A stretch of 64,000 bases of DNA from a virus. Its lineage: Duplodnaviria; Caudoviricetes. The notes under the pieces are model-generated. The model saw nothing but the letters and a program-made list of their open reading frames with translations, searched no databases and was not told the origin of the DNA. The stretch covers positions 51,720 through 115,719 of IMG/VR virus record IMGVR_UViG_3300049009_000811; one strand, given 5' to 3'. Position 1 is the first letter of the stretch, and every line of letters starts with the position of its first letter. The position numbers were made by a program, and so were the translations under genes. Below are positions 13,497 through 23,922 of the stretch, in pieces.

Positions 13497-13558
13497 TGGT
13501 TCTCCTTTGCTCGTGTGTGTTATATATAATTGGTCGTAATTTTTTCGAGGAAATAATA

Positions 13559-13879
13559 TTGAGAGACAACATCGTCGCGCCGACCCTTACCGCCACAAAC
13601 GACCCGAGCCGCAGCCCGCAGTCCAGCGAGGTCACGGCTCAGGTCGAATCCGTGTTCTTGGCTTCCGGCGAGATAAGGAGGATGTCGCCCAGGGAATACG
13701 AGAGGCTTCAAGGTTTCCCCGATGACTGGACTATGGTCCCGCAGAACGGCAAGCCAGCCGCGAGATGCCCCAACGGTCCGAGGTACAAGGCTATCGGCAA
13801 CAGCATGGCTGTGACTTGCATGCGGTGGATAGGTCGGAGGATATTGAGGAGTCAAGCCCCGGCGGACCTCAGTATCTGA
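13559..13879 (+). CDS. free-standing C5 DNA methyltransferase C-terminal module (TRD + motifs IX/X)
   Basis: VAPTLTA TRD; RRMSPREYERLQGFPDDWT; RYKAIGNSM; TTG start after GAGGA, TATAAT upstream. Confidence 0.8.
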   Translation: MRDNIVAPTLTATNDPSRSPQSSEVTAQVESVFLASGEIRRMSPREYERLQGFPDDWTMVPQNGKPAARCPNGPRYKAIGNSMAVTCMRWIGRRILRSQAPADLSI

Positions 13880-14484
13880 TCCTTCGTCATGTTGACAGAC
13901 GCCTTGGCGAAAGCCGGCAGGTCCAGGATGTCTGGAGAGTCGCAGGCTGACCTGTGCGACGAGTAGGCGCACATCCTCACGTAGTCGCCCGAGGATACGG
14001 CGTTCGAGAGCGGGTGGGCTGGGGAGATGTACGCCTCGGAAGGTTCCAGGTCCTCGGATATCATGGACATTAGCCTCTCGGAGAAGGACCTAGCCGTTTC
14101 AGGCGAGCCGTTCGACTCGTCGAGGCATCCCAAGACCCAGTCACGGACCTCCTTGTTGCCGACTATGTTGAGGCACAGGAGCGCGGCGAACCTGAATCGC
14201 TGCTGGTCGGTTATGTTAGGTCTGGCGGATTCGGCGACGCACCTTATCTTGGAGTAGTGGCGCCTAGCCTTGTCCTCGCCTATCTTCTCGAACGACTCGA
14301 CCTCCCAGAATCTCGGTTCTAGCAGTCCCTCGAAGCTTGGCTGCATAAGCTCCGCAACGTTCAAGTCCTTGTATGGCGTGAATATGTAGTTAGGGTTGTC
14401 GGTTTCGTACGATTCCCCCGGTTTCATCTCCAGACCGGAGAAATGCCTTCCGTGCTTGTCCGTGACTAGGTAAGAAATGGTCAT
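13852..14484 (-). CDS. hypothetical protein
   Basis: SD GGAG before MTISYLVTD. Confidence 0.7.
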   Translation of the reverse strand: MTISYLVTDKHGRHFSGLEMKPGESYETDNPNYIFTPYKDLNVAELMQPSFEGLLEPRFWEVESFEKIGEDKARRHYSKIRCVAESARPNITDQQRFRFAALLCLNIVGNKEVRDWVLGCLDESNGSPETARSFSERLMSMISEDLEPSEAYISPAHPLSNAVSSGDYVRMCAYSSHRSACDSPDILDLPAFAKASVNMTKDQILRSAGA

Positions 14485-14588
14485 GATATAGCTCCCGATT
14501 TTTCTGGCTGTTGTTGTTTGGCGACTCCCTTTAGAAGAGTGTCCCGACATCACTCTAATATGTTGATGTTTCCCAGGAGTGAAAAAAA

Positions 14589-15419
14589 ATGAAGAGAATG
14601 ATGTTTGTGTTGTTTTCGGCTTTCGCCGCGGGATCTTTTTTGGGCATAGCCCTCAAGCCTTCGTTCATGGAGGTCGAGTCGAAAGAGGAGGGCAAGACCG
14701 AGGACATAGTGGCGTATCCGCAGCCAAGGTGGTACATCCAGGACGTCATAGGCAAGAAGGATCTGAGGCTCGGCGCGGTTCTCTCCGACATAAGGTCGCA
14801 CATAAGCGACGGGGGCTACTACGACGACGGCGACAAGGTTACTTCTGGTCACGAGACGACCCACGGGATAAACTCCATGGTCAGGAACAGGCTCTACAAT
14901 GGTAAGCCGATAAACGCGTTCTACTGCCTTGACGGAAAGGTTTCCGTTCTCGACGAGCCTAGAACCAGAATAGAGGTTGTCGCCCGCGAGGTGCCGCGCA
15001 GCCTTAGGGGCGGGGTTTACGGGCTGTACATGGTCGAGCAGGCTTCGACATGGGGAGACAGGGCTCTGTACATACTGGACGAGTGGGTCTGCTACACTAA
15101 CGGCAGCGCTGTCCGCAAGGACCTTGGGATGTCCGGGAGGGCTGAGACCGTCCTGTACATGCTAGAGTTCGACGTCTACGTCATGACGCTGGCGAAAGTC
15201 CTTGAGGATCTCGAGCCTGGATATTCCTTCGGCGGGTTCAAGGACTTCGTGAGGTGGAACGTCGAGAGGAGCATGAGCCTTTACAACGGCGAGAGGGAAG
15301 CCGGTGAATACCTGGCGAAGCTTCGCGGGAACGCGGACGCCGCGGGATTGAGGTCTTTCATGATTGGCTATTTCGGTCGAAGGTGGTGCGTGGACGTCTT
15401 GGGCGTCGGTGGAGTCTGA
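14589..15419 (+). CDS. exported HExxH metallopeptidase-like protein
   Basis: Signal or anchor peptide; GHETTHG; YILDEW third ligand candidate. Confidence 0.7.
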   Translation: MKRMMFVLFSAFAAGSFLGIALKPSFMEVESKEEGKTEDIVAYPQPRWYIQDVIGKKDLRLGAVLSDIRSHISDGGYYDDGDKVTSGHETTHGINSMVRNRLYNGKPINAFYCLDGKVSVLDEPRTRIEVVAREVPRSLRGGVYGLYMVEQASTWGDRALYILDEWVCYTNGSAVRKDLGMSGRAETVLYMLEFDVYVMTLAKVLEDLEPGYSFGGFKDFVRWNVERSMSLYNGEREAGEYLAKLRGNADAAGLRSFMIGYFGRRWCVDVLGVGGV

Positions 15420-15420
15420 C

Positions 15421-16152
15421 CTACAGCTTCGTGACGCCGTTCACGAGGAGTTTCCTCCTCTCCCTGTACCTGCCGATCTTTTCAGGGTTGACTTCCCTTC
15501 TGAAGTTCGACTTGCTGCTGTCGTCGAATTCGAAGCCGAAGTATTCGATGTCCTTCCTGTATATGCTTCCGACCATGTCCACCATCTTGTCCGTGTAGTA
15601 TGTCCTGTAGTCCTCGTGCTTGCTCCTGTTCGCGTGGGGTAGCTTTTTCCTGTTTCCCGTGATGTCGGACACGAGCTTGAAGTCCTCTTCGTAGGTGTGG
15701 ATGCTGCAGAAGTAGTCGACCAGGATCTCCCCGTCGGCGCTCACCCAGTCCATGACCGGACTGAGGTAGAACCAATACCGGTTGTCTCCGTCGTGTTCCA
15801 TGTGGATCTCGTCGTCGGTCTGAATGGCGATGTAGTCCTCCATGGTCATTTTCGATATGTGCTTTTCTTTTTTTCTTTTGCTTCTGCCGTTCATGGACAC
15901 GCTTTGGTTATCGAGGAGGTACAAGTAGGCTGAAACCATCCTCTCCCAAGGGTTCCTCGTGTTGGCGAACACGAGGTAGTTTTCGAGGTTTATCTTCTTG
16001 TTGCGGTAGTGCTGCATCGAATAGTGGAGCGGCGACCATTCAGTGTTGCCGAATTCGTTGATGACGGAGCAATTGCCGAAAAGGTCTATTATCGACCACC
16101 CGCCGGTCTTCGGCGGGTGTATGAAAATTATTTTCTCCATCTCGTTTATCAT
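15421..16152 (-). CDS. sulfotransferase family 2 protein
   Basis: FIHPPKTGGWSI (5'PSB), RNPWERMVSAY (3'PB), HANRSKHEDYRTYY...KDIEYFGFEF. Confidence 0.9.
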   Translation of the reverse strand: MINEMEKIIFIHPPKTGGWSIIDLFGNCSVINEFGNTEWSPLHYSMQHYRNKKINLENYLVFANTRNPWERMVSAYLYLLDNQSVSMNGRSKRKKEKHISKMTMEDYIAIQTDDEIHMEHDGDNRYWFYLSPVMDWVSADGEILVDYFCSIHTYEEDFKLVSDITGNRKKLPHANRSKHEDYRTYYTDKMVDMVGSIYRKDIEYFGFEFDDSSKSNFRREVNPEKIGRYRERRKLLVNGVTKL

Positions 16153-16243
16153 ATGTTTATGTAGGCATCCTTGCCTGAAGATCAATCCGTTGAATGTATA
16201 TATCATCGAAGCCTAGCCTAGTCAAACAACTTTCGCAACAATC

Positions 16244-16579
16244 TCACGGATGGCGCATGCTGAGTTTCATCACGACCATGCCGATGACAACCATTATCGA
16301 GCCGACAAAGAATCCCCTTGTCGGGTTTATGCCGTATATTAGGTACGGCACGATGACGTCGACTAGTATGACCGAGAACTCCCAGGCTAGGCTGAACATC
16401 AGCAGCCTTTCGCTCCCGTTGGTGATCCTTGTGCCGAAAGCCCACATAGTGCCGCACACGAGGCTGAAGGATACGCACACCGGCACGTAGTACCACGCGT
16501 TCCTGAAGGAATCGTTGTATGACAGCGACATCGATATTCCGTAAAGGAAAAAAACGATCAATACTATTATGTTCTCCAT
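16244..16579 (-). CDS. four-TM membrane protein (SMR/DMT-like)
   Basis: Four hydrophobic helices in 111 aa. Confidence 0.65.
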   Translation of the reverse strand: MENIIVLIVFFLYGISMSLSYNDSFRNAWYYVPVCVSFSLVCGTMWAFGTRITNGSERLLMFSLAWEFSVILVDVIVPYLIYGINPTRGFFVGSIMVVIGMVVMKLSMRHP

Positions 16580-16627
16580 ATAGTTATATGAAGAAGCGGG
16601 AGAAGTAAATTACCCGGAAAAATGCTC

Positions 16628-16669
16628 AAAAAAAAGACCGGTCCTTTTTTCGGACCGGTATTTTTTTTT
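16628..16669. terminator. intrinsic (bidirectional) terminator
   Basis: Stem ACCGGTCC/GGACCGGT flanked by an A-run and a T-run. Confidence 0.75.
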
Positions 16670-16926
16670 CAATGCCCCTCGGCTATTTTCTGGGCTTTCC
16701 TGTAATCTCCCTTTCCGAGGGCTTTTCTCATCTTCTTTTTACTCAGAATCTCGCACAGGGTGATTATCACGGACGTGGTGACTGGCTTGCTGAAGAAAAC
16801 AAGCCTTTCGTCTTCGTCGTGACCTATGTGGCATATCAATTCTCCGGTGGACTTGTCGACGAACCTCACCACGTTTTCCCCCATGCCCAACAAGTCGGAC
16901 TTGCCGGACTCCTCCTCTTTGAACAT
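16669..16926 (-). CDS. hypothetical protein
   Basis: ORF with SD AAGGA. Confidence 0.65.
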   Translation of the reverse strand: MFKEEESGKSDLLGMGENVVRFVDKSTGELICHIGHDEDERLVFFSKPVTTSVIITLCEILSKKKMRKALGKGDYRKAQKIAEGH

Positions 16927-16937
16927 TCGAGCGTCCT

Positions 16938-17345
16938 TTACTTCTTGATTTTAGGGTCCTTGTTCGCTTCGGGCGTGATGGCTACTGGTTCTGGGATCAT
17001 CCAGCGGGCATGACCTTCCTTCGTGAAGTTGAACTGCTTTATGGCGGTGTGGTATCCGTCGGCGTACGAAGCCGTTCCGGCGACCTTCAGCGCCGAGTCC
17101 CATCCGTCCTGGAAAGAACCGGGGGATTGCGGTCCGCCCATTTTTATGAGCGCGTCCCTGTATCCGTCGTTGTAGGACGGCGATGTCTGCAGGGAGCCTA
17201 TCTCGTTAGCCATCAGCGAGTTCTCGAACTTGAGTATCTGCGAGTACAGGTTCGCGCTTCTGGCGTCGTAGTCCTTGTAGGCTGCGAAAGCCAGGGAAAC
17301 CAAGGTTGCCGCGCACGAAGCGACCAAAATCTTTCTCGAATCCAT
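16938..17345 (-). CDS. membrane-anchored hypothetical protein
   Basis: N-terminal hydrophobic helix; YxDGY repeats; SD AGGAG. Confidence 0.65.
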   Translation of the reverse strand: MDSRKILVASCAATLVSLAFAAYKDYDARSANLYSQILKFENSLMANEIGSLQTSPSYNDGYRDALIKMGGPQSPGSFQDGWDSALKVAGTASYADGYHTAIKQFNFTKEGHARWMIPEPVAITPEANKDPKIKK

Positions 17346-17419
17346 GAAAAACACTCCTTTCATTTTAGTGTTGCCGATAGGCAGTAGGTTACCAGCGACG
17401 GAAACAAAATCAATGGCAA

Positions 17420-18031
17420 TCAGGAGTTTTTTTCCAGTTTGTATTCGACCGCCACGTTTACCGTCATCGTGGGGACTCCGATGTCGGTGCATATGTTGAC
17501 CTTTTTGGCTTGCGCAGCCGTGAGGAAAAGGTCGGCGTTGTTCTTGTCGTGTAGCATCTCGAGGAAGAAGCCGGGTTTCTTCCCGCAGTTCTTCGACATG
17601 ATCTTGAATATGAGCTTGTTGAGCCTGTCCGTCTCCTTCACGTCAGCCTTTATATCCTCCGTCTTGCCAAACGACCTTGACGACACCTCGTGTATCATGA
17701 GGGTCGCGTGCGGGGACATGTACCTCCTGTCGCCCATGGCGAACAGTATGGCTCCGCACGACATTGCTTTGCTCTCGACTATTGTGTGGCACGGGAGCGG
17801 ACATGTCTCTATCCTGCCGACCATCTCCAGCAGGCTGTAGACTTCGCCGCCGTACGAGTCTACGACTATGGGGATGAACGGCTGCCCGGAGTTGGAAGCC
17901 TTGTCCATCTGTTCCGAGAAGTCCTGGCACGACGTCCCGGAGAAGTTCTTGACCCTGATGACGACCGGCTGGTCCATCAGTTCCTCGAGCTTGCACTTGA
18001 TGGCTTTGTCCACTTTTATCGTCTTGTGCAT
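17420..18031 (-). CDS. clpP: ATP-dependent Clp protease proteolytic subunit-like
   Basis: DSYGGEV, KAMSCGA (catalytic Ser), MIHE (His), DLFLTA (Asp). Confidence 0.9.
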   Translation of the reverse strand: MHKTIKVDKAIKCKLEELMDQPVVIRVKNFSGTSCQDFSEQMDKASNSGQPFIPIVVDSYGGEVYSLLEMVGRIETCPLPCHTIVESKAMSCGAILFAMGDRRYMSPHATLMIHEVSSRSFGKTEDIKADVKETDRLNKLIFKIMSKNCGKKPGFFLEMLHDKNNADLFLTAAQAKKVNICTDIGVPTMTVNVAVEYKLEKNS

Positions 18032-18032
18032 T

Positions 18033-18890
18033 TCACCTCGGTTTTTCCAGGTATGACTTCGCCACGTTCGACATCCTCATGAACGCCATTGTCGGCGAGT
18101 ATTCGGACAGAACCTTGAACGGGTTCCCGAAGGAGAAGTATTCCGGCGGCTTGAATCCGAACATGTTCTTGCTGAATATAGGCATGTATCCGTTTCTGTA
18201 GCTTATAAAGCTTTTGGGATGGTTGCTGAAAAGGTCGCAGTCGAGCTCGTATGTCCCCAGCGCGTTGTACTTGCCGACATACTTGTGCAGCTGCACGTTC
18301 ATGGCTACGTTGACGCTTTCCGACCAAGGTTCCTTCCCGGACTTGATCTGGTTGAATATGTACTGCTCGCACAGGTTTATTGTCTCGTCGAAGAATTCGC
18401 TAGGGAAGCCGCCGAAGAACATGGTCCCGTAGGCGCTCGGCCATTTTTCCGAAGTCAATTCCTTTGGGTCGATGCCGAAGTGTTCCTTGAAGCCGGTCTT
18501 CCCGTCTATGAACTCGGGGGTGAAGTAAGGGTCGATCTGGAACCGGCAGAAAACCTGATCTTGGATGTCCTGGGGCTTGCTGAATATGATGGAGTCGAGG
18601 TCGAGCATGACGAACTGGTCGGATAGAGCCTTGTCCTTCATGGCGAAGCTGACCGCGTAAAGCTTGTTGAGCGTCTCGAACCCCCTGACTTCGCCTATGT
18701 TCGTGTGCACGAACTTTCTGGCGTGGTTGTTGATGTTCGACGAGAATTCGGGCAGCAGTTTCGAGTCTTCCCTCGAGGCGATGCATATCAGGAGCTTGTC
18801 CTCCAGCCCGATGGTCTTGAAGCTCTCTATCATAAGCTCAAGCTGCCACTGGTTTTGCGGGGTAAGCTCTGTGCTCACGAAAAAATCCAT
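18033..18890 (-). CDS. GT-A glycosyltransferase-like protein
   Basis: QWQ.ELM..SF, LNK..A, FVMLDLDSII (DxD). Confidence 0.6.
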   Translation of the reverse strand: MDFFVSTELTPQNQWQLELMIESFKTIGLEDKLLICIASREDSKLLPEFSSNINNHARKFVHTNIGEVRGFETLNKLYAVSFAMKDKALSDQFVMLDLDSIIFSKPQDIQDQVFCRFQIDPYFTPEFIDGKTGFKEHFGIDPKELTSEKWPSAYGTMFFGGFPSEFFDETINLCEQYIFNQIKSGKEPWSESVNVAMNVQLHKYVGKYNALGTYELDCDLFSNHPKSFISYRNGYMPIFSKNMFGFKPPEYFSFGNPFKVLSEYSPTMAFMRMSNVAKSYLEKPR

Positions 18891-18959
18891 AAAATCTCCT
18901 TTGTTGTGTTTAAATTAGTGTGGAAAAGACTAAAATGTAATCAGAAAGGCGGTTTGAAC

Positions 18960-19547
18960 ATGAAAGCTTTGACATTAACATTGGCGGTGGCGGTCGCGTC
19001 CATCCTCTACCTTGGGGTTTCTCCCAAGCTCGAGGCTGGCTGAAACGACGACAACGGTTTCGTTGTCGTTCCCCCGCCGGTCGGCGGATACGGCAATCTT
19101 GACGGCTTGGACACGAGAGACAGGCTTCGTCTGGAGGACGACTACAAGTACATGGTCTACCTCGCCAGGCAACTGGTCACGATGGACCAGACCATGTTCG
19201 AGGCGGCGCTGAACAGGAGCGACAGGCGCGTCAAGTCAGCGGCTCTGGCTATAGCTCACAAGTACGAGGAGAAGTACCTCGAAGACCTTATCTCCAACAT
19301 CGACTCGGACGAGCTTCTGGTCAGCCAGGCTGCCAGATACAGCCTAATACAGATAAGCAACCTTTACTTGGGAGGCAAGAACTTCGTCGACTTCGGTCCC
19401 ATGATCACGCACGACAGGGACACCAAGAGTTCCATAGCTTTCCTGTGGAAGGCTTGGTTCGGCAAGGCTGTGAAGGAAGGGAAAAAATGCAAGGGTTCAC
19501 AGACGATCCAGAAGTCGACCGCGAAAACCCCGACGCAGAAGAAGTGA
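18960..19547 (+). pseudogene. exported HEAT-like helical protein interrupted by an in-frame TGA (19041-19043); readthrough or nonsense allele
   Basis: Signal peptide ORF and the downstream 19107..19547 ORF share one frame, separated only by TGA. Confidence 0.6.
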
Positions 19548-19753
19548 CATTGAAGTCGGATGAAATAGGAAGTGACGAGCGTGTGTGCTGCAACTGCAAG
19601 CATTTACTCTGGGGAATAGCTCTCGGGATCGGCTTGCGATGCACAGAACCGAAGAACCACGATAGGTCTTCGGGAAACATGCCACCGATGGTGCCAAGCA
19701 GGAGGCACACCTGTGCCGGATTCGAGTTTCGCCATCCGCCTAGCAAAGATTGA
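19544..19753 (+). CDS. small Cys-rich protein
   Basis: GTGA overlap; CCNCKH...C...HTC. Confidence 0.6.
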   Translation: MTLKSDEIGSDERVCCNCKHLLWGIALGIGLRCTEPKNHDRSSGNMPPMVPSRRHTCAGFEFRHPPSKD

Positions 19754-20083
19754 TCATCGGCTACTGGTCCCGTGCCATGAGTTGATCCTCTGACCTATCC
19801 ACCTCATGACGTTGGTAGCCATCGAGTTGCCGATAGCCTTGTACCTCGGACTGTCTGGGCAGACCTCGGATGGCTTGCCCCTATAGGGTATCTGAGTCCA
19901 GTTGTCCGGGAATCCCTGCAGCCTCTCGCATTCCACTGCCGTAAGGTGTCTCACTTTACCGCCTGCGGCGATGTGCATCCTAGGCAGGGAATCCTTCCCT
20001 CCACTGGCACCGTGGTGCTTGTAGAAGCAAGAGGTTATGGTGTCGGAGATATTCTGGAATACCACCTGCTCGATTTCAATCAT
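19754..20083 (-). CDS. free-standing C5 MTase C-terminal module (1 TRD + IX/X)
   Basis: ISDTITSC TRD; RHLTAVECERLQGFPDNWT; RYKAIGNSMA; ATGA overlap and SD GAAGGA. Confidence 0.85.
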   Translation of the reverse strand: MIEIEQVVFQNISDTITSCFYKHHGASGGKDSLPRMHIAAGGKVRHLTAVECERLQGFPDNWTQIPYRGKPSEVCPDSPRYKAIGNSMATNVMRWIGQRINSWHGTSSR

Positions 20084-20616
20084 AAATCCTTCTTTTCGCA
20101 AAAAGTTGGATTGCGTAGTTCCTGATCCTTCCTCAAGATCCTCTGACCTATCCACCGCATGACGTTGACAGCCATCGAGTTTCCCAGAGCCTTGTACCTC
20201 GGACCGTCGGGGCATTTGTCTTCCGGCTTGTTCCTGTACGGCACAAGAGTCCAGTTGTCCGGGAATCCCTGCAACCTCTCGCATTCGGTCGTGGTCATCC
20301 TCCTGATGTACATTTCGGTCACGGTCGATTCCAGTTTCACTGCGACCACGGACTGGTCGGCGTTGTGACCAGGGCTGTTCGTCTGACCGCCGCCACGGCT
20401 CGATCTTCCCATTAGCGTAGCCGAGACCTCTGGAGTGTAGACGAATTCCTGTTTCACCACCGCCACTCCAGGGATCACCGCGGTCCTGAGCGTGAATGCC
20501 GGTTCTCCCTCTTTTCCCCATCCGGCGGTCTGCTTCCTGGTCGGAGAAAGTGAGCAAAGGTCCATCGGGTCTTTCAGCGGAACGCAGGAGACGCTGTCTT
20601 TCTTCTTGTCAATCAT
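20080..20616 (-). CDS. free-standing C5 MTase C-terminal module (2 TRDs + IX/X)
   Basis: PAFTLRT and VSATLMG TRDs; RRMTTTECERLQGFP; RYKALGNSMA; ATGA overlap with the upstream MTase. Confidence 0.85.
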   Translation of the reverse strand: MIDKKKDSVSCVPLKDPMDLCSLSPTRKQTAGWGKEGEPAFTLRTAVIPGVAVVKQEFVYTPEVSATLMGRSSRGGGQTNSPGHNADQSVVAVKLESTVTEMYIRRMTTTECERLQGFPDNWTLVPYRNKPEDKCPDGPRYKALGNSMAVNVMRWIGQRILRKDQELRNPTFCEKKDL

Positions 20617-22571
20617 ATTTGACCGCCATCCTTCATCGCCACCCTCTGACCTATCCACCGCATGACGTTGGTAGCCATCGAGTTGCCTAAAGACTTGTAC
20701 CTCGGACCGTCGGGGCATTTGTCCGCGTCCTTCTTCCTGTACGGTATCTTGGTCCACAAGTCCGGGAAGCCCTGCAGCCTCTCGCACTCTATCGGGGTCA
20801 ACCTCCGCACCACCATGTGCTGGAACACCATCCCGACATGGTCGCCGTCCGACCTGCTGGCGCGTATCGTCTGCGAGGTGTCGCTTACCGTCTGGCTGTA
20901 GCCGTCGAAAGCGAGAACGTCTTGCTCCTGCTCGAGCAACACCATTCCCATCTTGTCGCAGTCCGACCCGGTACGGATCGTCTGGGAGGTCGTGGACAGA
21001 GTCTGATTGTATCCGTCGAACGCCATGGCTTCTTGCTTCTGCTCGAGAATGTAGTTGGTCTGCTTAGCCCCGGACTCCGCAGCCAGAGCCCCGGCTATCT
21101 GCCCGTCGCCTGATATGAACCTCACCTCGTCACGGGTGTTCTGCTGGAACGCGGATTTGATGACATGGCTTGGTCTGCTGGGTCGGTTCTCTCCCTCGGC
21201 TCGAAGCGTTCCGGAGACCTCGTCCTTCACCCAGTAACCGTGACCAGATTCCCGCATGCACTCCGACTCTACCACGTAAGCCTGCGCGCACGGAGCCCCG
21301 CTCAGTTCGGGAGTGGAAACCTGGATCGCTTCGGCGCTTGTCGTGGCTATGATGTGTCCGTTCATGATCGACTGGTGGGTCAGCTTGCCCCCGCCGCACT
21401 GCGTGTCCAGGCACCCGGCTGTCTCCGGGATCTGGTGCTTGACGAAAAGGCTACCGTTGTCGGCGCTGGCGTTTCCGTTCCATTTCGTGCCGTACGCTGC
21501 GGTGAGGCAGTCAGCCGTCTCCCTGAAAGGTACTGGCTTGCCTTGGCTGTTGGAATCCGCTATCGCCGGCGGGTGAGCCCCCGAAGCGAGAGGGTGGCAA
21601 GGGTCGCCCGGCTTAGGGTTGCTGTAGTTGGACGCGCTGGTTATCTGCGTGGTGTCGAACGGCAGGACGCCGTTCTCATCCTTGCTGGTCGACGAGTAGT
21701 CCTGGACCGACCTCTTCGGCGGCGAGTCTAATCTTTTTTTTTGAGGCACAGCCTGTATGTAGCCGGCGTCCACGCCCTGGTTGCAAGCGAAATTGCCGGC
21801 GTCATGTCCGTTCGGACCGGTGTTGCATGCCAGAGTACCGACCGTCTCGGACCTGCTCGGCGGGGAATCTATTCTGGGTCTTTCGTCTCTGGATCTTTCG
21901 TCGAGACTTCCCGAAGAGCCGACTCCAGAGTCGGAGGGAGCTTCTTGCCCCTGCGCTCCGCCCTCGACAGTATCCCCCTGCACGCTCGCCCACTCAAAAA
22001 GAATCTCTGCGGGATCTGCCCCGTCTCTAGGACAGCTGACAACGAACACACGCTTGCGCCGTTGTGCCAGGTTGAAATATTGGGCATCGAGGCATCGCCA
22101 CGCGATTGCTCTTTTGGGTCCATACACACAACCAGAGTCCTTCCATTTTCCCCCTGGCGGTCGAATTTCACAATCTTCGCCGGCAAGCGCTCCCAGAAAG
22201 CATCCGAATGCGTTGTCCTTTGAGCTGAGTACCCCTGGCACGTTTTCCCAGATGATGTACTTTGGGTTGAACTTGTCTGCGATCTGCACGAAGGTGATTG
22301 AGAGGCTTCCTCGTGCGTCCTCGAGTCCGCGCCGCAGTCCTGCGACTGAGAAGGCTTGGCATGGAGTTCCTCCGACGAGGATGTCGACGTCTCCGATATT
22401 CCAGTTTCTGTATTCATTCATGTCTCCTAGGTTTGGAACGTTTGGGAATCTGTGGGCTAGAACCGCGGCGGGGAAGGCGTCTATCTCGGAGAAAGCAACT
22501 GGCTCCCAACCGAAATCGTGCCAGGCTACGCTGGCTGCCTCTATGCCCGAACAAACTGACAAATACTTCAT
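20613..22571 (-). CDS. dcm: DNA (cytosine-5) methyltransferase with long multi-TRD region
   Basis: Motif I SVCSGIEA, IV GGTPCQAFS, VI ENVPG, VIII QRRKRVFVV, IX RRLTPIECERLQGFP, X RYKSLGNS. Confidence 0.95.
   Translation of the reverse strand: MKYLSVCSGIEAASVAWHDFGWEPVAFSEIDAFPAAVLAHRFPNVPNLGDMNEYRNWNIGDVDILVGGTPCQAFSVAGLRRGLEDARGSLSITFVQIADKFNPKYIIWENVPGVLSSKDNAFGCFLGALAGEDCEIRPPGGKWKDSGCVYGPKRAIAWRCLDAQYFNLAQRRKRVFVVSCPRDGADPAEILFEWASVQGDTVEGGAQGQEAPSDSGVGSSGSLDERSRDERPRIDSPPSRSETVGTLACNTGPNGHDAGNFACNQGVDAGYIQAVPQKKRLDSPPKRSVQDYSSTSKDENGVLPFDTTQITSASNYSNPKPGDPCHPLASGAHPPAIADSNSQGKPVPFRETADCLTAAYGTKWNGNASADNGSLFVKHQIPETAGCLDTQCGGGKLTHQSIMNGHIIATTSAEAIQVSTPELSGAPCAQAYVVESECMRESGHGYWVKDEVSGTLRAEGENRPSRPSHVIKSAFQQNTRDEVRFISGDGQIAGALAAESGAKQTNYILEQKQEAMAFDGYNQTLSTTSQTIRTGSDCDKMGMVLLEQEQDVLAFDGYSQTVSDTSQTIRASRSDGDHVGMVFQHMVVRRLTPIECERLQGFPDLWTKIPYRKKDADKCPDGPRYKSLGNSMATNVMRWIGQRVAMKDGGQI
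21869..22417 (-). CDS. nested alternative-frame MTase beta subunit (M.EcoHK31I-beta-like)
   Basis: SD AGGAGA 5 nt before ATG; C-terminus CSLSAVLETGQIPQRFFLSGRACRGILSRAERRGKKLP conserved with the paralogue. Confidence 0.75.
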   Translation of the reverse strand: MNTETGISETSTSSSEELHAKPSQSQDCGADSRTHEEASQSPSCRSQTSSTQSTSSGKTCQGYSAQRTTHSDAFWERLPAKIVKFDRQGENGRTLVVCMDPKEQSRGDASMPNISTWHNGASVCSLSAVLETGQIPQRFFLSGRACRGILSRAERRGKKLPPTLESALREVSTKDPETKDPE

Positions 22572-22584
22572 CGCGAATCTCCTT

Positions 22585-23922
22585 TTATTTTTCCGACTCG
22601 ACCCGCTCGCCTATCCAGCGCATCACGTTTACGCACATGGAGTTGCCGATAGCCTTGTACCTCGGACCGTCTGGGCATGCCTCGGCTGGCTTGCCCCTGT
22701 ATGGTATCTGAGTCCAGTTGTCCGGGAATCCCTGCAGCCTCTCGCACTCTATGGGAGTGAGCTTCCTCACGATCATGGAGTGGTGGAGAGACATCTGGTT
22801 GTCGCCGGGTTCCTTCCTCAGCGTGCCGCATATGTCCTCCCAGTAGTAGCCACCCATCCTGGACATTGCTCCCGGCTCGAAGGTCGCCGGATGCATCACG
22901 AGGCTTCCGCCCTGGTTCTTGCTCGGGTCCGGCACCGAAGTGTCAAGGGTCTTTATCGTTTCCACTTCCCTGCAGCCGCTGTGCGGGTTGCTTGATTTCA
23001 TCGAGTTGCTCGATTTTGAGTCGAACGAGTACACGACCGCGGGCTGCGCGACCCCGTGCACGCAGGCTGAGGTTATGGTGTTGGATGGGTCGCCCTCGGA
23101 GCCTACGCCGAGACCCTGCCTGTTCATCGCGTCCATCTTTTTCGGGTCTCGGCAGGCGTTGCGGAGGTCGAGGGGTATGGCTTGGACAGCCACGTGCCTC
23201 TGCTTGCTGCCCTGGAGGGCATCAAGCGTGTTCGTGACATCGGTCTCGACATAGCAGCCGCCGGTGTCGCCGAAATTCTGGGGCTTGTACAGGGTCACTC
23301 CGTCTTGTTCGCAACCGCCTCCAGAGCGTTCTTGAGCTTCTCTGGAAGCTGCTTTTTTCTTTCCTCTGCTCTTCGCAGTATCCCTAGACACGCTTTCTGA
23401 CTTAAAAAGTACTTTTGCTGCACGTTCCTGGTCTCCAAGACACCCAACAACGAACACCCTTCGTCTCCGTTGCGGAACTCCGAACCCCGAAGCGTCCAGG
23501 ACCCTATATGCCCACCCGTACCCCAGTTCCCCCAGCCCCCCGAGGAAGGTTCCAAAATCCCTTCCTCCGTGGCTTGAAAGCACCCCGGGGACATTTTCCC
23601 AGACAATCCATCTAGGTTTTCTACTTCTAGCGATCTCAAGAAATCTGAGCATGAGACCGCCCCTTGGGTCGCTGAGCCCTTTTCGCAGTCCCGCGACTGA
23701 GAAGCTCTGGCATGGGGTTCCTCCGACGAGCAGGTCGATTGGATCGATGTCCCATCGTTCATGTTCATTCATGTCTCCTAGGTTTGGTACGTTCGGGAAT
23801 CTTGTCTTGAGAATCTCGCAAGGGAATTTCTCTATCTCTGAGAAGGCTACTGCTTCCCAGCCCATGTGGTGCCAAGCCGAGGTCGCGGCTTCTATGCCGG
23901 AACAGACCGATAGGTATTTCAT
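22585..23922 (-). CDS. dcm: DNA (cytosine-5) methyltransferase, multi-TRD
   Basis: All C5-MTase motifs (GGTPCQSFS, ENVPG, QRRRRVF, ECERLQGFP, KAIGNS). Confidence 0.95.
   Translation of the reverse strand: MKYLSVCSGIEAATSAWHHMGWEAVAFSEIEKFPCEILKTRFPNVPNLGDMNEHERWDIDPIDLLVGGTPCQSFSVAGLRKGLSDPRGGLMLRFLEIARSRKPRWIVWENVPGVLSSHGGRDFGTFLGGLGELGYGWAYRVLDASGFGVPQRRRRVFVVGCLGDQERAAKVLFKSESVSRDTAKSRGKKKAASREAQERSGGGCEQDGVTLYKPQNFGDTGGCYVETDVTNTLDALQGSKQRHVAVQAIPLDLRNACRDPKKMDAMNRQGLGVGSEGDPSNTITSACVHGVAQPAVVYSFDSKSSNSMKSSNPHSGCREVETIKTLDTSVPDPSKNQGGSLVMHPATFEPGAMSRMGGYYWEDICGTLRKEPGDNQMSLHHSMIVRKLTPIECERLQGFPDNWTQIPYRGKPAEACPDGPRYKAIGNSMCVNVMRWIGERVESEK
23295..23768 (-). CDS. nested alternative-frame MTase beta subunit (M.EcoHK31I-beta-like)
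   Basis: Same AGGAGACATGAATG start context; CSLLGVLETRNVQQKYFLSQKACLGILRRAEERKKQLP. Confidence 0.75.
   Translation of the reverse strand: MNMNDGTSIQSTCSSEEPHARASQSRDCEKGSATQGAVSCSDFLRSLEVENLDGLSGKMSPGCFQATEEGILEPSSGGWGNWGTGGHIGSWTLRGSEFRNGDEGCSLLGVLETRNVQQKYFLSQKACLGILRRAEERKKQLPEKLKNALEAVANKTE

What the first reader, a model, noticed from the sequence alone, without database searches (positions are those of the whole stretch)
13559..23922. Modular C5-methyltransferase kit: two full enzymes plus three free-standing TRD+IX/X mini-genes
Seen: two complete C5-MTases (23922-22585, 22571-20613) are followed by two genes lacking catalytic motifs I-VIII (20616-20080, 20083-19754). A third such gene lies 6 kb away on the opposite strand (13559-13879). 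Each mini-gene has different TRD-like segment(s) and an intact R.LT..ECERLQGFPD.WT...RYKA.GNSMA..MRWIG tail. The two adjacent mini-genes are joined by ATGA stop/start overlaps, and the distant one has its own SD and TATAAT, so they look expressed rather than decayed. Established: C5-MTases can be naturally split (M.AquI) and complement as fragments, and Bacillus phage MTases (SPR, phi3T) gain specificities by adding TRDs. Inference: these are swappable specificity subunits that plug into the catalytic half in trans, or donor cassettes recombined through the conserved IX/X block. Either would let the phage tune its methylome against many host restriction systems.
Basis: partly seen in the sequence, partly recalled or inferred. 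Interest (0 to 1): 0.9.

Follow-up and report, generated by a model that had tools for sequence, protein, structure and literature searches.

The report
Spare specificity modules beside phage cytosine methyltransferases
A large uncultured phage carries two complete cytosine-C5 DNA methyltransferases plus three small, evolutionarily conserved genes that encode only the DNA-recognising and C-terminal closing part of such an enzyme; these probably act as extra plug-in specificity subunits, but this has not been shown by experiment.

Summary
The window has two complete C5-MTases: M1 at 22585-23922 and M2 at 20613-22571, both on the minus strand. It also has three short genes that match only Pfam PF00145 positions ~255-323 (end of the variable region plus motifs IX/X): mini1 20080-20616(-), mini2 19754-20083(-) and mini3 13559-13879(+).

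The five-gene layout recurs in four related metagenomic phages with no frameshift or internal stop. Ortholog dN/dS is 0.03-0.25 for the mini-genes, against 0.05-0.17 for the full enzymes. Their TRD-like parts are the most constrained. They are therefore real, selected protein genes, not debris.

The five tails cluster by ortholog, not by genome, and gene order is fixed. This argues against the "recombining donor cassette" idea.

A controlled complex model places the mini1 IX/X tail on the motif I/IV/VI/VIII face of the M2 catalytic half (score 0.91; best control 0.00). That pass may only reflect likeness to solved monomeric MTases.

Split alpha/beta enzymes occur elsewhere in this family. "Full enzyme plus extra beta-like genes" appeared in only this lineage among ~150 surveyed loci. 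No catalytic-half-only gene lies in the 115 kb available (about 24% of the genome).

Best reading, at about 45%: trans-acting specificity subunits.

The scan had also noted this stretch in another window of the same genome.

The parts
22585..23922 (-). M1, complete C5 cytosine DNA methyltransferase (445 aa), first gene of the four-gene run
   Evidence: PF00145 positions 1-322, E 4e-57. Motifs PCQ, ENVPG, QRRRR, ERLQGFPD and GNSM are visible in the translation. 99% identical in L007, dN/dS 0.05.
20613..22571 (-). M2, complete C5 methyltransferase (652 aa) with a ~400-aa variable region holding repeated TRD-like units. It starts 13 nt after M1 behind AAGGAG.
   Evidence: PF00145 N-part 1-182 plus C-part. 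Internal unit duplication is visible in the alignment. Orthologs in L007, L087 and L088, dN/dS 0.10-0.17. Junction shown.
20080..20616 (-). mini1 (178 aa): two TRD-like units plus motifs IX/X, no motifs I-VIII. Its ATG overlaps the M2 stop (ATGA).
   Evidence: PF00145 positions 258-323 only. The ATGA junction is conserved in 5/5 genomes. Orthologs are 81-95% identical, dN/dS 0.12-0.25, and 0.00-0.14 in the TRD part. The complex model docks residues 115-167 on the M2 catalytic half.
19754..20083 (-). mini2 (109 aa): one TRD-like unit homologous to the last repeat of M2, plus motifs IX/X. Its start overlaps the mini1 stop.
   Evidence: PF00145 positions 271-323. 52% identical to M2 residues 545-644. 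dN/dS 0.03-0.12. Codons 2-35, before the first internal Met, give dN/dS <=0.06, although the start codon is ATG, CTG, TTG or absent in different genomes.
13559..13879 (+). mini3 (106 aa, TTG start): a short unit with PTLTA plus motifs IX/X. It stands alone on the opposite strand 6 kb away.
   Evidence: PF00145 positions 255-323, E 5e-11. Orthologs in L007 and L087 are 94-96% identical, dN/dS 0.12-0.22. The neutral model is rejected at p = 4e-6.
13519..13558 (+). Conserved upstream signals of mini3: GTTATATATAAT (-10-like) and GAGGA/GAGGG Shine-Dalgarno, with a variable spacer between them
   Evidence: Sequence. The three-genome comparison shows both blocks conserved and the spacer changing, and the upstream GTG-frame codons change non-synonymously. 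Not called by the generic promoter scan.

Best explanation
The three mini-genes encode free-standing 'beta-like' modules: a TRD-like unit or units, plus motif IX, plus the motif X helix. They are translated. mini1 and mini2 are translated by termination-reinitiation coupling behind M2, and mini3 from its own promoter.

Each module is proposed to dock through its IX/X tail onto the motif I/IV/VI/VIII face of a C5-MTase catalytic half. The likely partners are M1 or M2, perhaps while the nascent chain still lacks its own distant tail, or an alpha-only gene in the unsampled three quarters of the genome. Docking would complete an active enzyme whose small domain carries a different TRD. This would add methylation targets that protect the phage DNA from more host restriction enzymes.

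Shown: the genes exist, are conserved and are under purifying selection. The tails keep the motif IX and X residues. Docking is geometrically compatible.

Inferred: that they bind in the cell, that the complexes are active, and that new target sequences result.
For: - Only the C-terminal third of PF00145 is present in each mini-gene.
- The five-gene layout is kept in four relatives with no stop or frameshift.
- dN/dS is 0.03-0.25. Neutrality is rejected at p = 4e-6 to 3e-13. The TRD-like parts are the most constrained, at 0.00-0.14.
- ATGA coupling of mini1 is conserved in 5/5 genomes, and the SD and -10-like blocks of mini3 in 3/3.
- All five tails keep ERLQGFPD and GNSM. A protein that only bound DNA would not need the motif X residues; this point is inference.
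- Complex model of M2 residues 1-215 with mini1: score 0.91 against a best control of 0.00. The runs agree in at least 77% of contacts, and the partner pLDDT is at least 56. This mark was reached by 58 of 80 solved complexes and 2 of 110 mismatched pairs. The interface is mini1 residues 115-167 against M2 residues 9-17, 31-41, 64-70, 104-109 and 161-191.
- mini1 alone folds poorly (mean pLDDT 57.7), as expected for a piece that needs a partner.
- Precedent: M.AquI alpha/beta, and complementation of N- and C-terminal fragments that works best when the C-fragment starts between motif VIII and the TRD (PMC3404938).
- Natural N/C splits occur in this same phage family: L093, L025, L138 and mycobacteriophage KashFlow gp113/gp114.
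- The TRD-like units of the mini-genes are only 33-58% identical to any other unit in the locus.
Against: - No N-terminal-only (alpha) gene exists in the 115.7-kb record or in the relatives' contigs. The only catalytic halves seen already carry their own TRDs and tails in cis, and complementation of a full-length enzyme has no precedent that I know of.
- The complex pass may simply reflect likeness to solved monomeric C5-MTases, as the tool itself warns.
- Interface positions of the tail are only weakly more conserved than the others: 20/35 against 10/30 invariant, p = 0.08.
- mini2 and mini3 carry only ~30 residues between the T-L/T-I motif and motif IX. This may be too little for a complete TRD.
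- mini2 has a weak or non-canonical start codon in most relatives, so it may be made in small amounts.
- There are no expression or methylome data.
Confidence: 0.45

Rival explanations
1. The mini-proteins are functional but non-catalytic. One option is a free small domain that binds particular DNA sequences or 5mC sites. The other is a competitor that caps catalytic halves and so tunes, delays or limits methylation by M1/M2, as a dominant-negative or chaperone-like regulator.
For: Purifying selection shows a function but not which one. The only catalytic halves seen already have their own tails. A free-standing relative of mini1 (P0010, 118 aa, 22 contigs) sits among small genes of another phage, with its own -10-like and SD signals and no MTase N-domain within 8 kb. 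mini3 is transcribed apart from the enzymes.
Against: The motif X residues (GNSM) and the docking face are kept in all five tails. For a pure DNA binder this would be unnecessary. Contigs of the P0010 phage are at most 8 kb, so a partner elsewhere is not excluded. No known example of such a regulator in C5-MTases turned up in the literature searches.
Confidence: 0.22
2. The mini-genes are silent or semi-silent donor cassettes. They recombine through the conserved IX/X block with the full-length genes, or invert through mini3, to swap TRDs.
For: The tails share exact runs of 17-44 nt. mini3 forms 150-178-nt inverted repeats, 70-76% complementary, with the other four tails.
Against: The tails are only 66-81% identical between paralogues, yet 87-99% identical between orthologs. 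All 20 tails from five genomes group by gene, not by genome. Order and orientation are the same in every relative, so no conversion or shuffling has happened over dS up to ~0.8. Conserved translation signals and coupling point to direct expression. No recombinase gene was noticed next to the locus.
Confidence: 0.04
3. The mini-genes are remnants of tandemly duplicated methyltransferases that lost their 5' halves. They have no function of their own and are slowly decaying.
For: Each TRD-like unit has a homolog inside a full-length enzyme (L015/L017 matches). Many short 'C-only' database proteins are contig-end pieces or gene-caller artefacts.
Against: dN/dS is 0.03-0.25, with neutrality rejected at p <= 4e-6 for every mini-gene and for the TRD parts alone. 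There is no stop or frameshift in any of 13 ortholog copies, and the junctions and SD sequences are conserved.
Confidence: 0.05
4. The small ORFs are not separate proteins. They are joined to the preceding gene by programmed frameshifting or stop-codon read-through, giving chains with several TRD-IX-X modules behind one catalytic half.
For: The -1 frame is open across each preceding tail (235-aa and 267-aa ORFs). In L087, mini2 lies in the same frame as mini1, 12 nt behind a single TAG. In three of the four relatives mini2 lacks an ATG.
Against: The required event differs between close relatives: a -1 shift in four genomes and read-through in one. No conserved slippery heptamer lies at the junctions. 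mini3 stands alone. NTGA overlaps are the classic signature of termination-reinitiation.
Confidence: 0.05

Closest known systems
M.AquI (Agmenellum quadruplicatum), a natural two-subunit C5-MTase (Karreman & de Waard 1990; cited in PMC3404938)
   Same: The small subunit holds the distal part of the variable region plus motifs IX-X, as the mini-genes do. It assembles in trans with a polypeptide that holds motifs I-VIII. Similar splits occur in this phage family (L093, L138, L025, KashFlow gp113/114).
   Different: M.AquI has one alpha and one beta, and neither is complete alone. Here two enzymes are already complete, three extra beta-like genes accompany them, and no alpha-only gene is seen.
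Multispecific C5-MTases of Bacillus phages (SPR, phi3T, rho11s, H2; Trautner laboratory; from my own knowledge, reference list seen)
   Same: The element is a phage and the likely purpose is self-protection against several restriction systems. Specificity resides in modular TRDs that can be added independently of the catalytic core. M2, with its ~400-aa variable region and repeated units, resembles this type.
   Different: In those enzymes all TRDs lie in one polypeptide between motifs VIII and IX and share one IX/X tail. Here extra TRD-like units are separate genes, each with its own IX/X tail.
Fragment complementation of M.BspRI, M.BsuRI, M.HhaI and M.SssI (PMC3404938)
   Same: Inactive N- and C-terminal fragments assemble into active enzyme in vivo. 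The best C-fragments start between motif VIII and the TRD, which is where the mini-genes start. Overlapping fragments also work.
   Different: Those fragments are laboratory constructs from one enzyme, with activity of about 4% of wild type. They are not naturally conserved extra genes.
M.EcoHK31I, with alpha plus a beta encoded in another frame inside alpha (cited in PMC3404938)
   Same: It is a two-polypeptide C5-MTase with an overlapping reading frame inside the MTase gene. M1 and M2 here also hold a conserved nested +1-frame ORF.
   Different: The EcoHK31I beta supplies motif IX. The nested ORFs here have no motif IX. The mini-genes are not nested, and they carry both IX and X.
Type I restriction-modification HsdS specificity subunits (from my own knowledge)
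   Same: The logic matches the proposed working: a separate, exchangeable specificity polypeptide combines with a shared catalytic subunit.
   Different: The protein family is unrelated (N6-adenine MTases, with coiled-coil HsdS). This is an analogy only.

Membership tests
C5 cytosine DNA methyltransferase (Pfam PF00145), complete enzyme | Motifs I-VIII (AdoMet binding, catalytic PC, ENV, QxRxR) in the same polypeptide | tested here: not met
   For mini1, mini2 and mini3, only profile positions 255-323 match, and the N-half HMM finds nothing in their ORFs (ortholog rows of L007). M1 and M2 meet this feature.
C5 cytosine DNA methyltransferase (Pfam PF00145), complete enzyme | Motifs IX (ERLQGFPD-type) and X (GNS[VM]) | tested here: met
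   These residues are invariant in all five proteins and in 20 tails from five genomes.
M.AquI-type split (alpha/beta) C5-MTase | Small polypeptide with the distal variable region plus motifs IX-X | tested here: met
   Each mini-gene starts 10-40 residues before a T-L/T-I motif and ends after motif X.
M.AquI-type split (alpha/beta) C5-MTase | A partner polypeptide with motifs I-VIII that lacks IX-X, usually encoded next to it | tested here: not met
   No N-only ORF lies in the 115.7-kb record, in the 39-kb relative or in L087. The record is estimated to be only 24% of the genome, so absence from the whole phage is not shown.
M.AquI-type split (alpha/beta) C5-MTase | Methylation requires both polypeptides | not testable with these tools
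   Only a structural model is available: score 0.91 against a best control of 0.00.
Multispecific phage C5-MTase (SPR/phi3T type) | Several independent TRDs in tandem between motifs VIII and IX of one polypeptide | tested here: inconclusive
   M2 has ~400 residues between motifs VIII and IX, with a clear tandem duplication of the last unit. Whether each unit is an active TRD cannot be told. The mini-genes are not inside such a polypeptide.
M.EcoHK31I-type (beta in an alternative frame) | The overlapping-frame polypeptide supplies motif IX | tested here: not met
   The nested +1 ORFs of M1 and M2 have no PF00145 match. Their conserved part is a three-helix unit.

The most novel reading that the evidence does not exclude
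This phage lineage runs its C5-methyltransferases on a Type-I-like principle. A small number of catalytic cores are shared among several separately encoded, separately regulated TRD-IX-X specificity subunits. mini1 and mini2 are coupled to M2, and mini3 has its own promoter. The methylome would then be set combinatorially and could change during infection. This would be the first natural case of supernumerary trans-acting specificity subunits for C5-MTases. A related free-standing family (P0010, P0009) may do the same in other phages.
Probability: 0.35. Interest if true: 0.8.

Novelty: new variant of a known kind. Interest (0 to 1): 0.62.

Why it matters
C5-MTases are textbook single-chain enzymes, and only two natural two-chain exceptions are usually cited. 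If supernumerary beta-like modules really complete a catalytic core in trans, that has several consequences:
- It would show a natural, evolvable way to multiply methylation specificities without duplicating the catalytic half.
- It would explain how a very large phage copes with many host restriction systems.
- It would offer ready-made parts for programmable split methyltransferases.

The survey also gives a practical warning. Many short 'C-only' MTase proteins in databases are contig ends or gene-caller artefacts caused by a nested +1-frame ORF.

Tried and rejected
- Complex prediction was unreachable six times before it ran.
- megablast of the 11-kb region against cultured phages: no match.
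- phmmer of mini1 against PDB sequences: no hit.
- AF2 of mini1 alone: low confidence except for the IX and X helices, so no fold search was made on it.
- The neighbour gene (285 aa) as a probe for more distant relatives: no pattern match.
- The 105-kb metagenome contig behind L102 is not held for a whole-record search. It is identical to L007 over the locus, so it is not an independent relative.
- Generic promoter and terminator scan: counts did not exceed the shuffles. The -10-like word upstream of mini3 is not a repeated promoter motif in the window.
- Candidate 'orphan' C-only proteins from the protein search were checked. P0099 in L090 is a gene-caller artefact of a full 457-aa gene. P0093 in L093 and P0054 in L094 are split or frame-overlapping N+C pairs.
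- Fusion by frameshift or read-through was considered and judged unlikely.
- Interface against non-interface conservation of the tails gave only a trend, p = 0.08.
- Fold search of the nested-ORF model against PDB: nothing below E = 1.
Full report
**What is there**

The window is the 3' 64 kb of a 115.7-kb IMG/VR virus record that CheckV rates 24% complete. Baseplate-wedge and tRNA-nucleotidyltransferase PHROG hits mark it as a large tailed phage with no close cultured relative.

On the minus strand four genes run head to tail.
- M1: 22585-23922, 445 aa.
- M2: 20613-22571, 652 aa. It starts 13 nt after M1, behind AAGGAG.
- mini1: 20080-20616, 178 aa. Its ATG overlaps the M2 stop as ATGA.
- mini2: 19754-20083, 109 aa. 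It overlaps the mini1 stop as ATGA.

Six kilobases away on the plus strand lies mini3 (13559-13879, 106 aa). It has a TTG start behind GAGGA and a TATATATAAT word.

Pfam PF00145 matches M1 and M2 over the whole profile. It matches the three mini-proteins only over profile positions ~255-323, that is the end of the variable region plus motifs IX and X. A six-frame search of the whole record finds these five genes and no other piece of the family. In particular there is no N-terminal-only gene.

**Are the mini-genes alive?**

Four independent relatives were recovered.
- L007, an IMG/VR contig of 39 kb. L102 is the same sequence.
- L087, an ENA contig of 14 kb.
- L088 and L089, short contigs.

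Wherever the contig reaches, the same genes lie in the same order and orientation. This includes mini3 on the opposite strand. No copy has a stop or frameshift.

Nei-Gojobori dN/dS between orthologs:

| Gene | dN/dS |
|---|---|
| M1 | 0.05 |
| M2 | 0.10-0.17 |
| mini1 | 0.12-0.25 |
| mini2 | 0.03-0.12 |
| mini3 | 0.12-0.22 |

Split at motif IX, the TRD-like parts of the mini-genes are the most constrained, at 0.00-0.14. A simple binomial test rejects neutrality at p = 4e-6 to 3e-13 for the whole mini-genes, and at 3e-4 to 6e-9 for their TRD-like or N-terminal parts alone.

**Translation signals**

The M2->mini1 ATGA, with GAAGGA upstream, is identical in five of five genomes.

The mini1->mini2 junction varies: ATGA in the window, CTGA in L007 and L089, TTGA in L088. 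In L087 a TAG is followed after 12 nt by an in-frame continuation with no canonical start. Yet mini2 codons 2-35, which precede the first internal Met, have dN/dS <=0.06. So this part is translated. Termination-reinitiation on a weak start codon is the most likely route, and the amount made is probably low.

Upstream of mini3, the -10-like block and the SD are conserved in three genomes. The spacer between them varies, and the alternative upstream GTG frame changes non-synonymously.

**Recombining cassettes?**

The five IX/X blocks are 68-81% identical in nucleotides inside the window, with exact runs of 17-44 nt. mini3 forms long but imperfect inverted repeats with the others.

Twenty tails from five genomes group strictly by gene: orthologs are 87-99% identical and paralogues 66-81%. 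There is no concerted evolution and no rearrangement over divergences up to dS ~0.8. The donor-cassette alternative is therefore not supported. Read-level data could not be obtained.

**What do the pieces look like?**

Each mini-protein begins 10-40 residues before a T-L/T-I motif of the kind that marks TRDs, and runs through motifs IX and X.
- mini2 is 52% identical to the last repeated unit plus tail of M2.
- mini1 aligns at 33% with M1 residues 245-441.
- The second unit of mini1 is 58% identical to mini3.

So the units are related to those of the full enzymes but well diverged from them. All five tails keep ERLQGFPD and GNSM.

mini1 alone is predicted with low confidence except for the IX and X helices.

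A controlled complex prediction of M2 residues 1-215 with mini1 gave a score of 0.91 against a best control of 0.00.
- The runs agree in at least 77% of contacts, and the partner pLDDT is at least 56.
- The mark was reached by 58 of 80 solved complexes and by 2 of 110 mismatched pairs.
- mini1 residues 115-167 pack on M2 residues 9-17, 31-41, 64-70, 104-109 and 161-191. This is the position that the tail holds within a single-chain enzyme.

As the tool warns, this pass can come from likeness to solved monomeric MTases. It shows compatibility, not binding.

**How unusual is the layout?**

I called N-half and tail HMM hits on stop-to-stop ORFs in 79 viral and 80 metagenomic loci with the most similar tails. 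The two collections overlap in part.
- Nearly all loci hold one full-length gene.
- C-only ORFs occur at contig ends or in split or frameshifted genes.
- The pattern 'two full genes plus three C-only genes' occurs only in this lineage.

True N/C splits do exist in the family. They include L093 (269 aa + 111 aa, ATGA overlap, 128 database members), L025, L138, and mycobacteriophage KashFlow gp113/gp114. Trans assembly is therefore natural in this family, as it is for M.AquI and in laboratory fragment complementation (PMC3404938).

A 118-aa protein of another phage (P0010, 22 contigs) and a 193-aa protein (P0009) start at the same module boundary as mini1. P0010 stands alone behind its own -10-like and SD signals, with no N-domain within 8 kb. 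This hints at a wider free-standing family.

Several apparent 'orphans' in the protein database turned out to be artefacts.

**Best reading and its limits**

I commit to trans-acting, beta-like specificity subunits that complete a C5-MTase catalytic half and add targets, at about 45%.

The main weakness is that the only catalytic halves seen already own a tail in cis. The model needs one of two things. Either docking happens on nascent or domain-swapped M1/M2, which is conceivable for M2 because its own tail lies 400 residues downstream. Or an alpha-only gene lies in the missing three quarters of the genome.

| Rival reading | Probability |
|---|---|
| Non-catalytic role (regulator, competitor or DNA binder) | ~22% |
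| Fusion by recoding | ~5% |
| Plain remnants | ~5% |
| Recombination cassettes | ~4% |

The remainder is unassigned.

**Side observation**

Both full-length genes contain a nested +1-frame ORF: 23295-23768 (157 aa) and 21869-22417 (182 aa). Another reader noted this (e1-5887465).
- In M2, substitutions among four orthologs fall on main-frame position 1, which is the wobble position of the +1 frame, across codons 181-240.
- Codons 121-180 are almost frozen in all three positions.
- The nested ORF is intact in all four orthologs.
- The same +1-frame motif follows the ENV codons in 58 of 79 unrelated loci of this MTase family.
- It matches phrog_16143 and viral 'hypothetical protein' clusters.
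- Its last ~45 residues model as three confident helices with no PDB match.

Gene callers that prefer this ORF generate false C-only MTase fragments. Its function is unknown, and it appears independent of the mini-genes.

Noticed in passing
window 23295-23768 (-) and 21869-22417 (-): A nested +1-frame ORF lies inside each full-length MTase gene and looks like a genuine overlapping gene. The substitution pattern switches to the wobble of the +1 frame in M2 codons 181-240. The ORF is intact in 4/4 orthologs. The same +1-frame motif is present in 58 of 79 other loci of this MTase family. It hits phrog_16143. The C-terminal three-helix unit reaches pLDDT >90 with no PDB match.
   Followed up: partly
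window 20080-20086; L007 10737; L089 843; L088 2678; L087 3362-3380: The start codon of mini2 is ATG, CTG, CTG, TTG or missing in five genomes, while the codons directly behind it stay under strong purifying selection. This is a likely case of termination-reinitiation on non-canonical starts.
   Followed up: partly
L093 1251-2392; L138 2885-4571; L025 1712-3495; L101 (Mycobacterium phage KashFlow gp113/gp114) 958-2842; L094 3241-4546: Natural N-half/C-half splits of this C5-MTase family occur in other phages, some with ATGA or frame-overlapping junctions. They are annotated only as 'DNA methylase' and 'methyltransferase'.
   Followed up: partly
L097 6073-6429 (also L098 4531-4887): A free-standing 118-aa relative of mini1 (P0010, 22 contigs) occurs in another phage. 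It starts at the same module boundary, has its own TATAAT and SD, and has no MTase N-domain within the 8-kb contig.
   Followed up: partly
L090 2975-4345: The database protein P0099 (115 aa, 'C-only') is a gene-caller artefact. The stop-to-stop ORF holds a complete 457-aa MTase. The caller took the nested +1 ORF (184 aa) and then restarted in the main frame.
   Followed up: yes
window 19754-23922 compared with L007 6865-11066: Synonymous divergence from the same relative differs several-fold between adjacent genes: M1 0.06, M2 0.14, mini2 0.23 and mini1 0.34. This suggests mosaic exchange between phage lineages, or dual-coding constraint in the 5' halves of M1 and M2.
   Followed up: no
window 13676-13700: mini3 alone has Tyr in place of the Cys of the E-C-E-R-L-Q motif (EYERLQ). 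This is conserved in all three orthologs.
   Followed up: no
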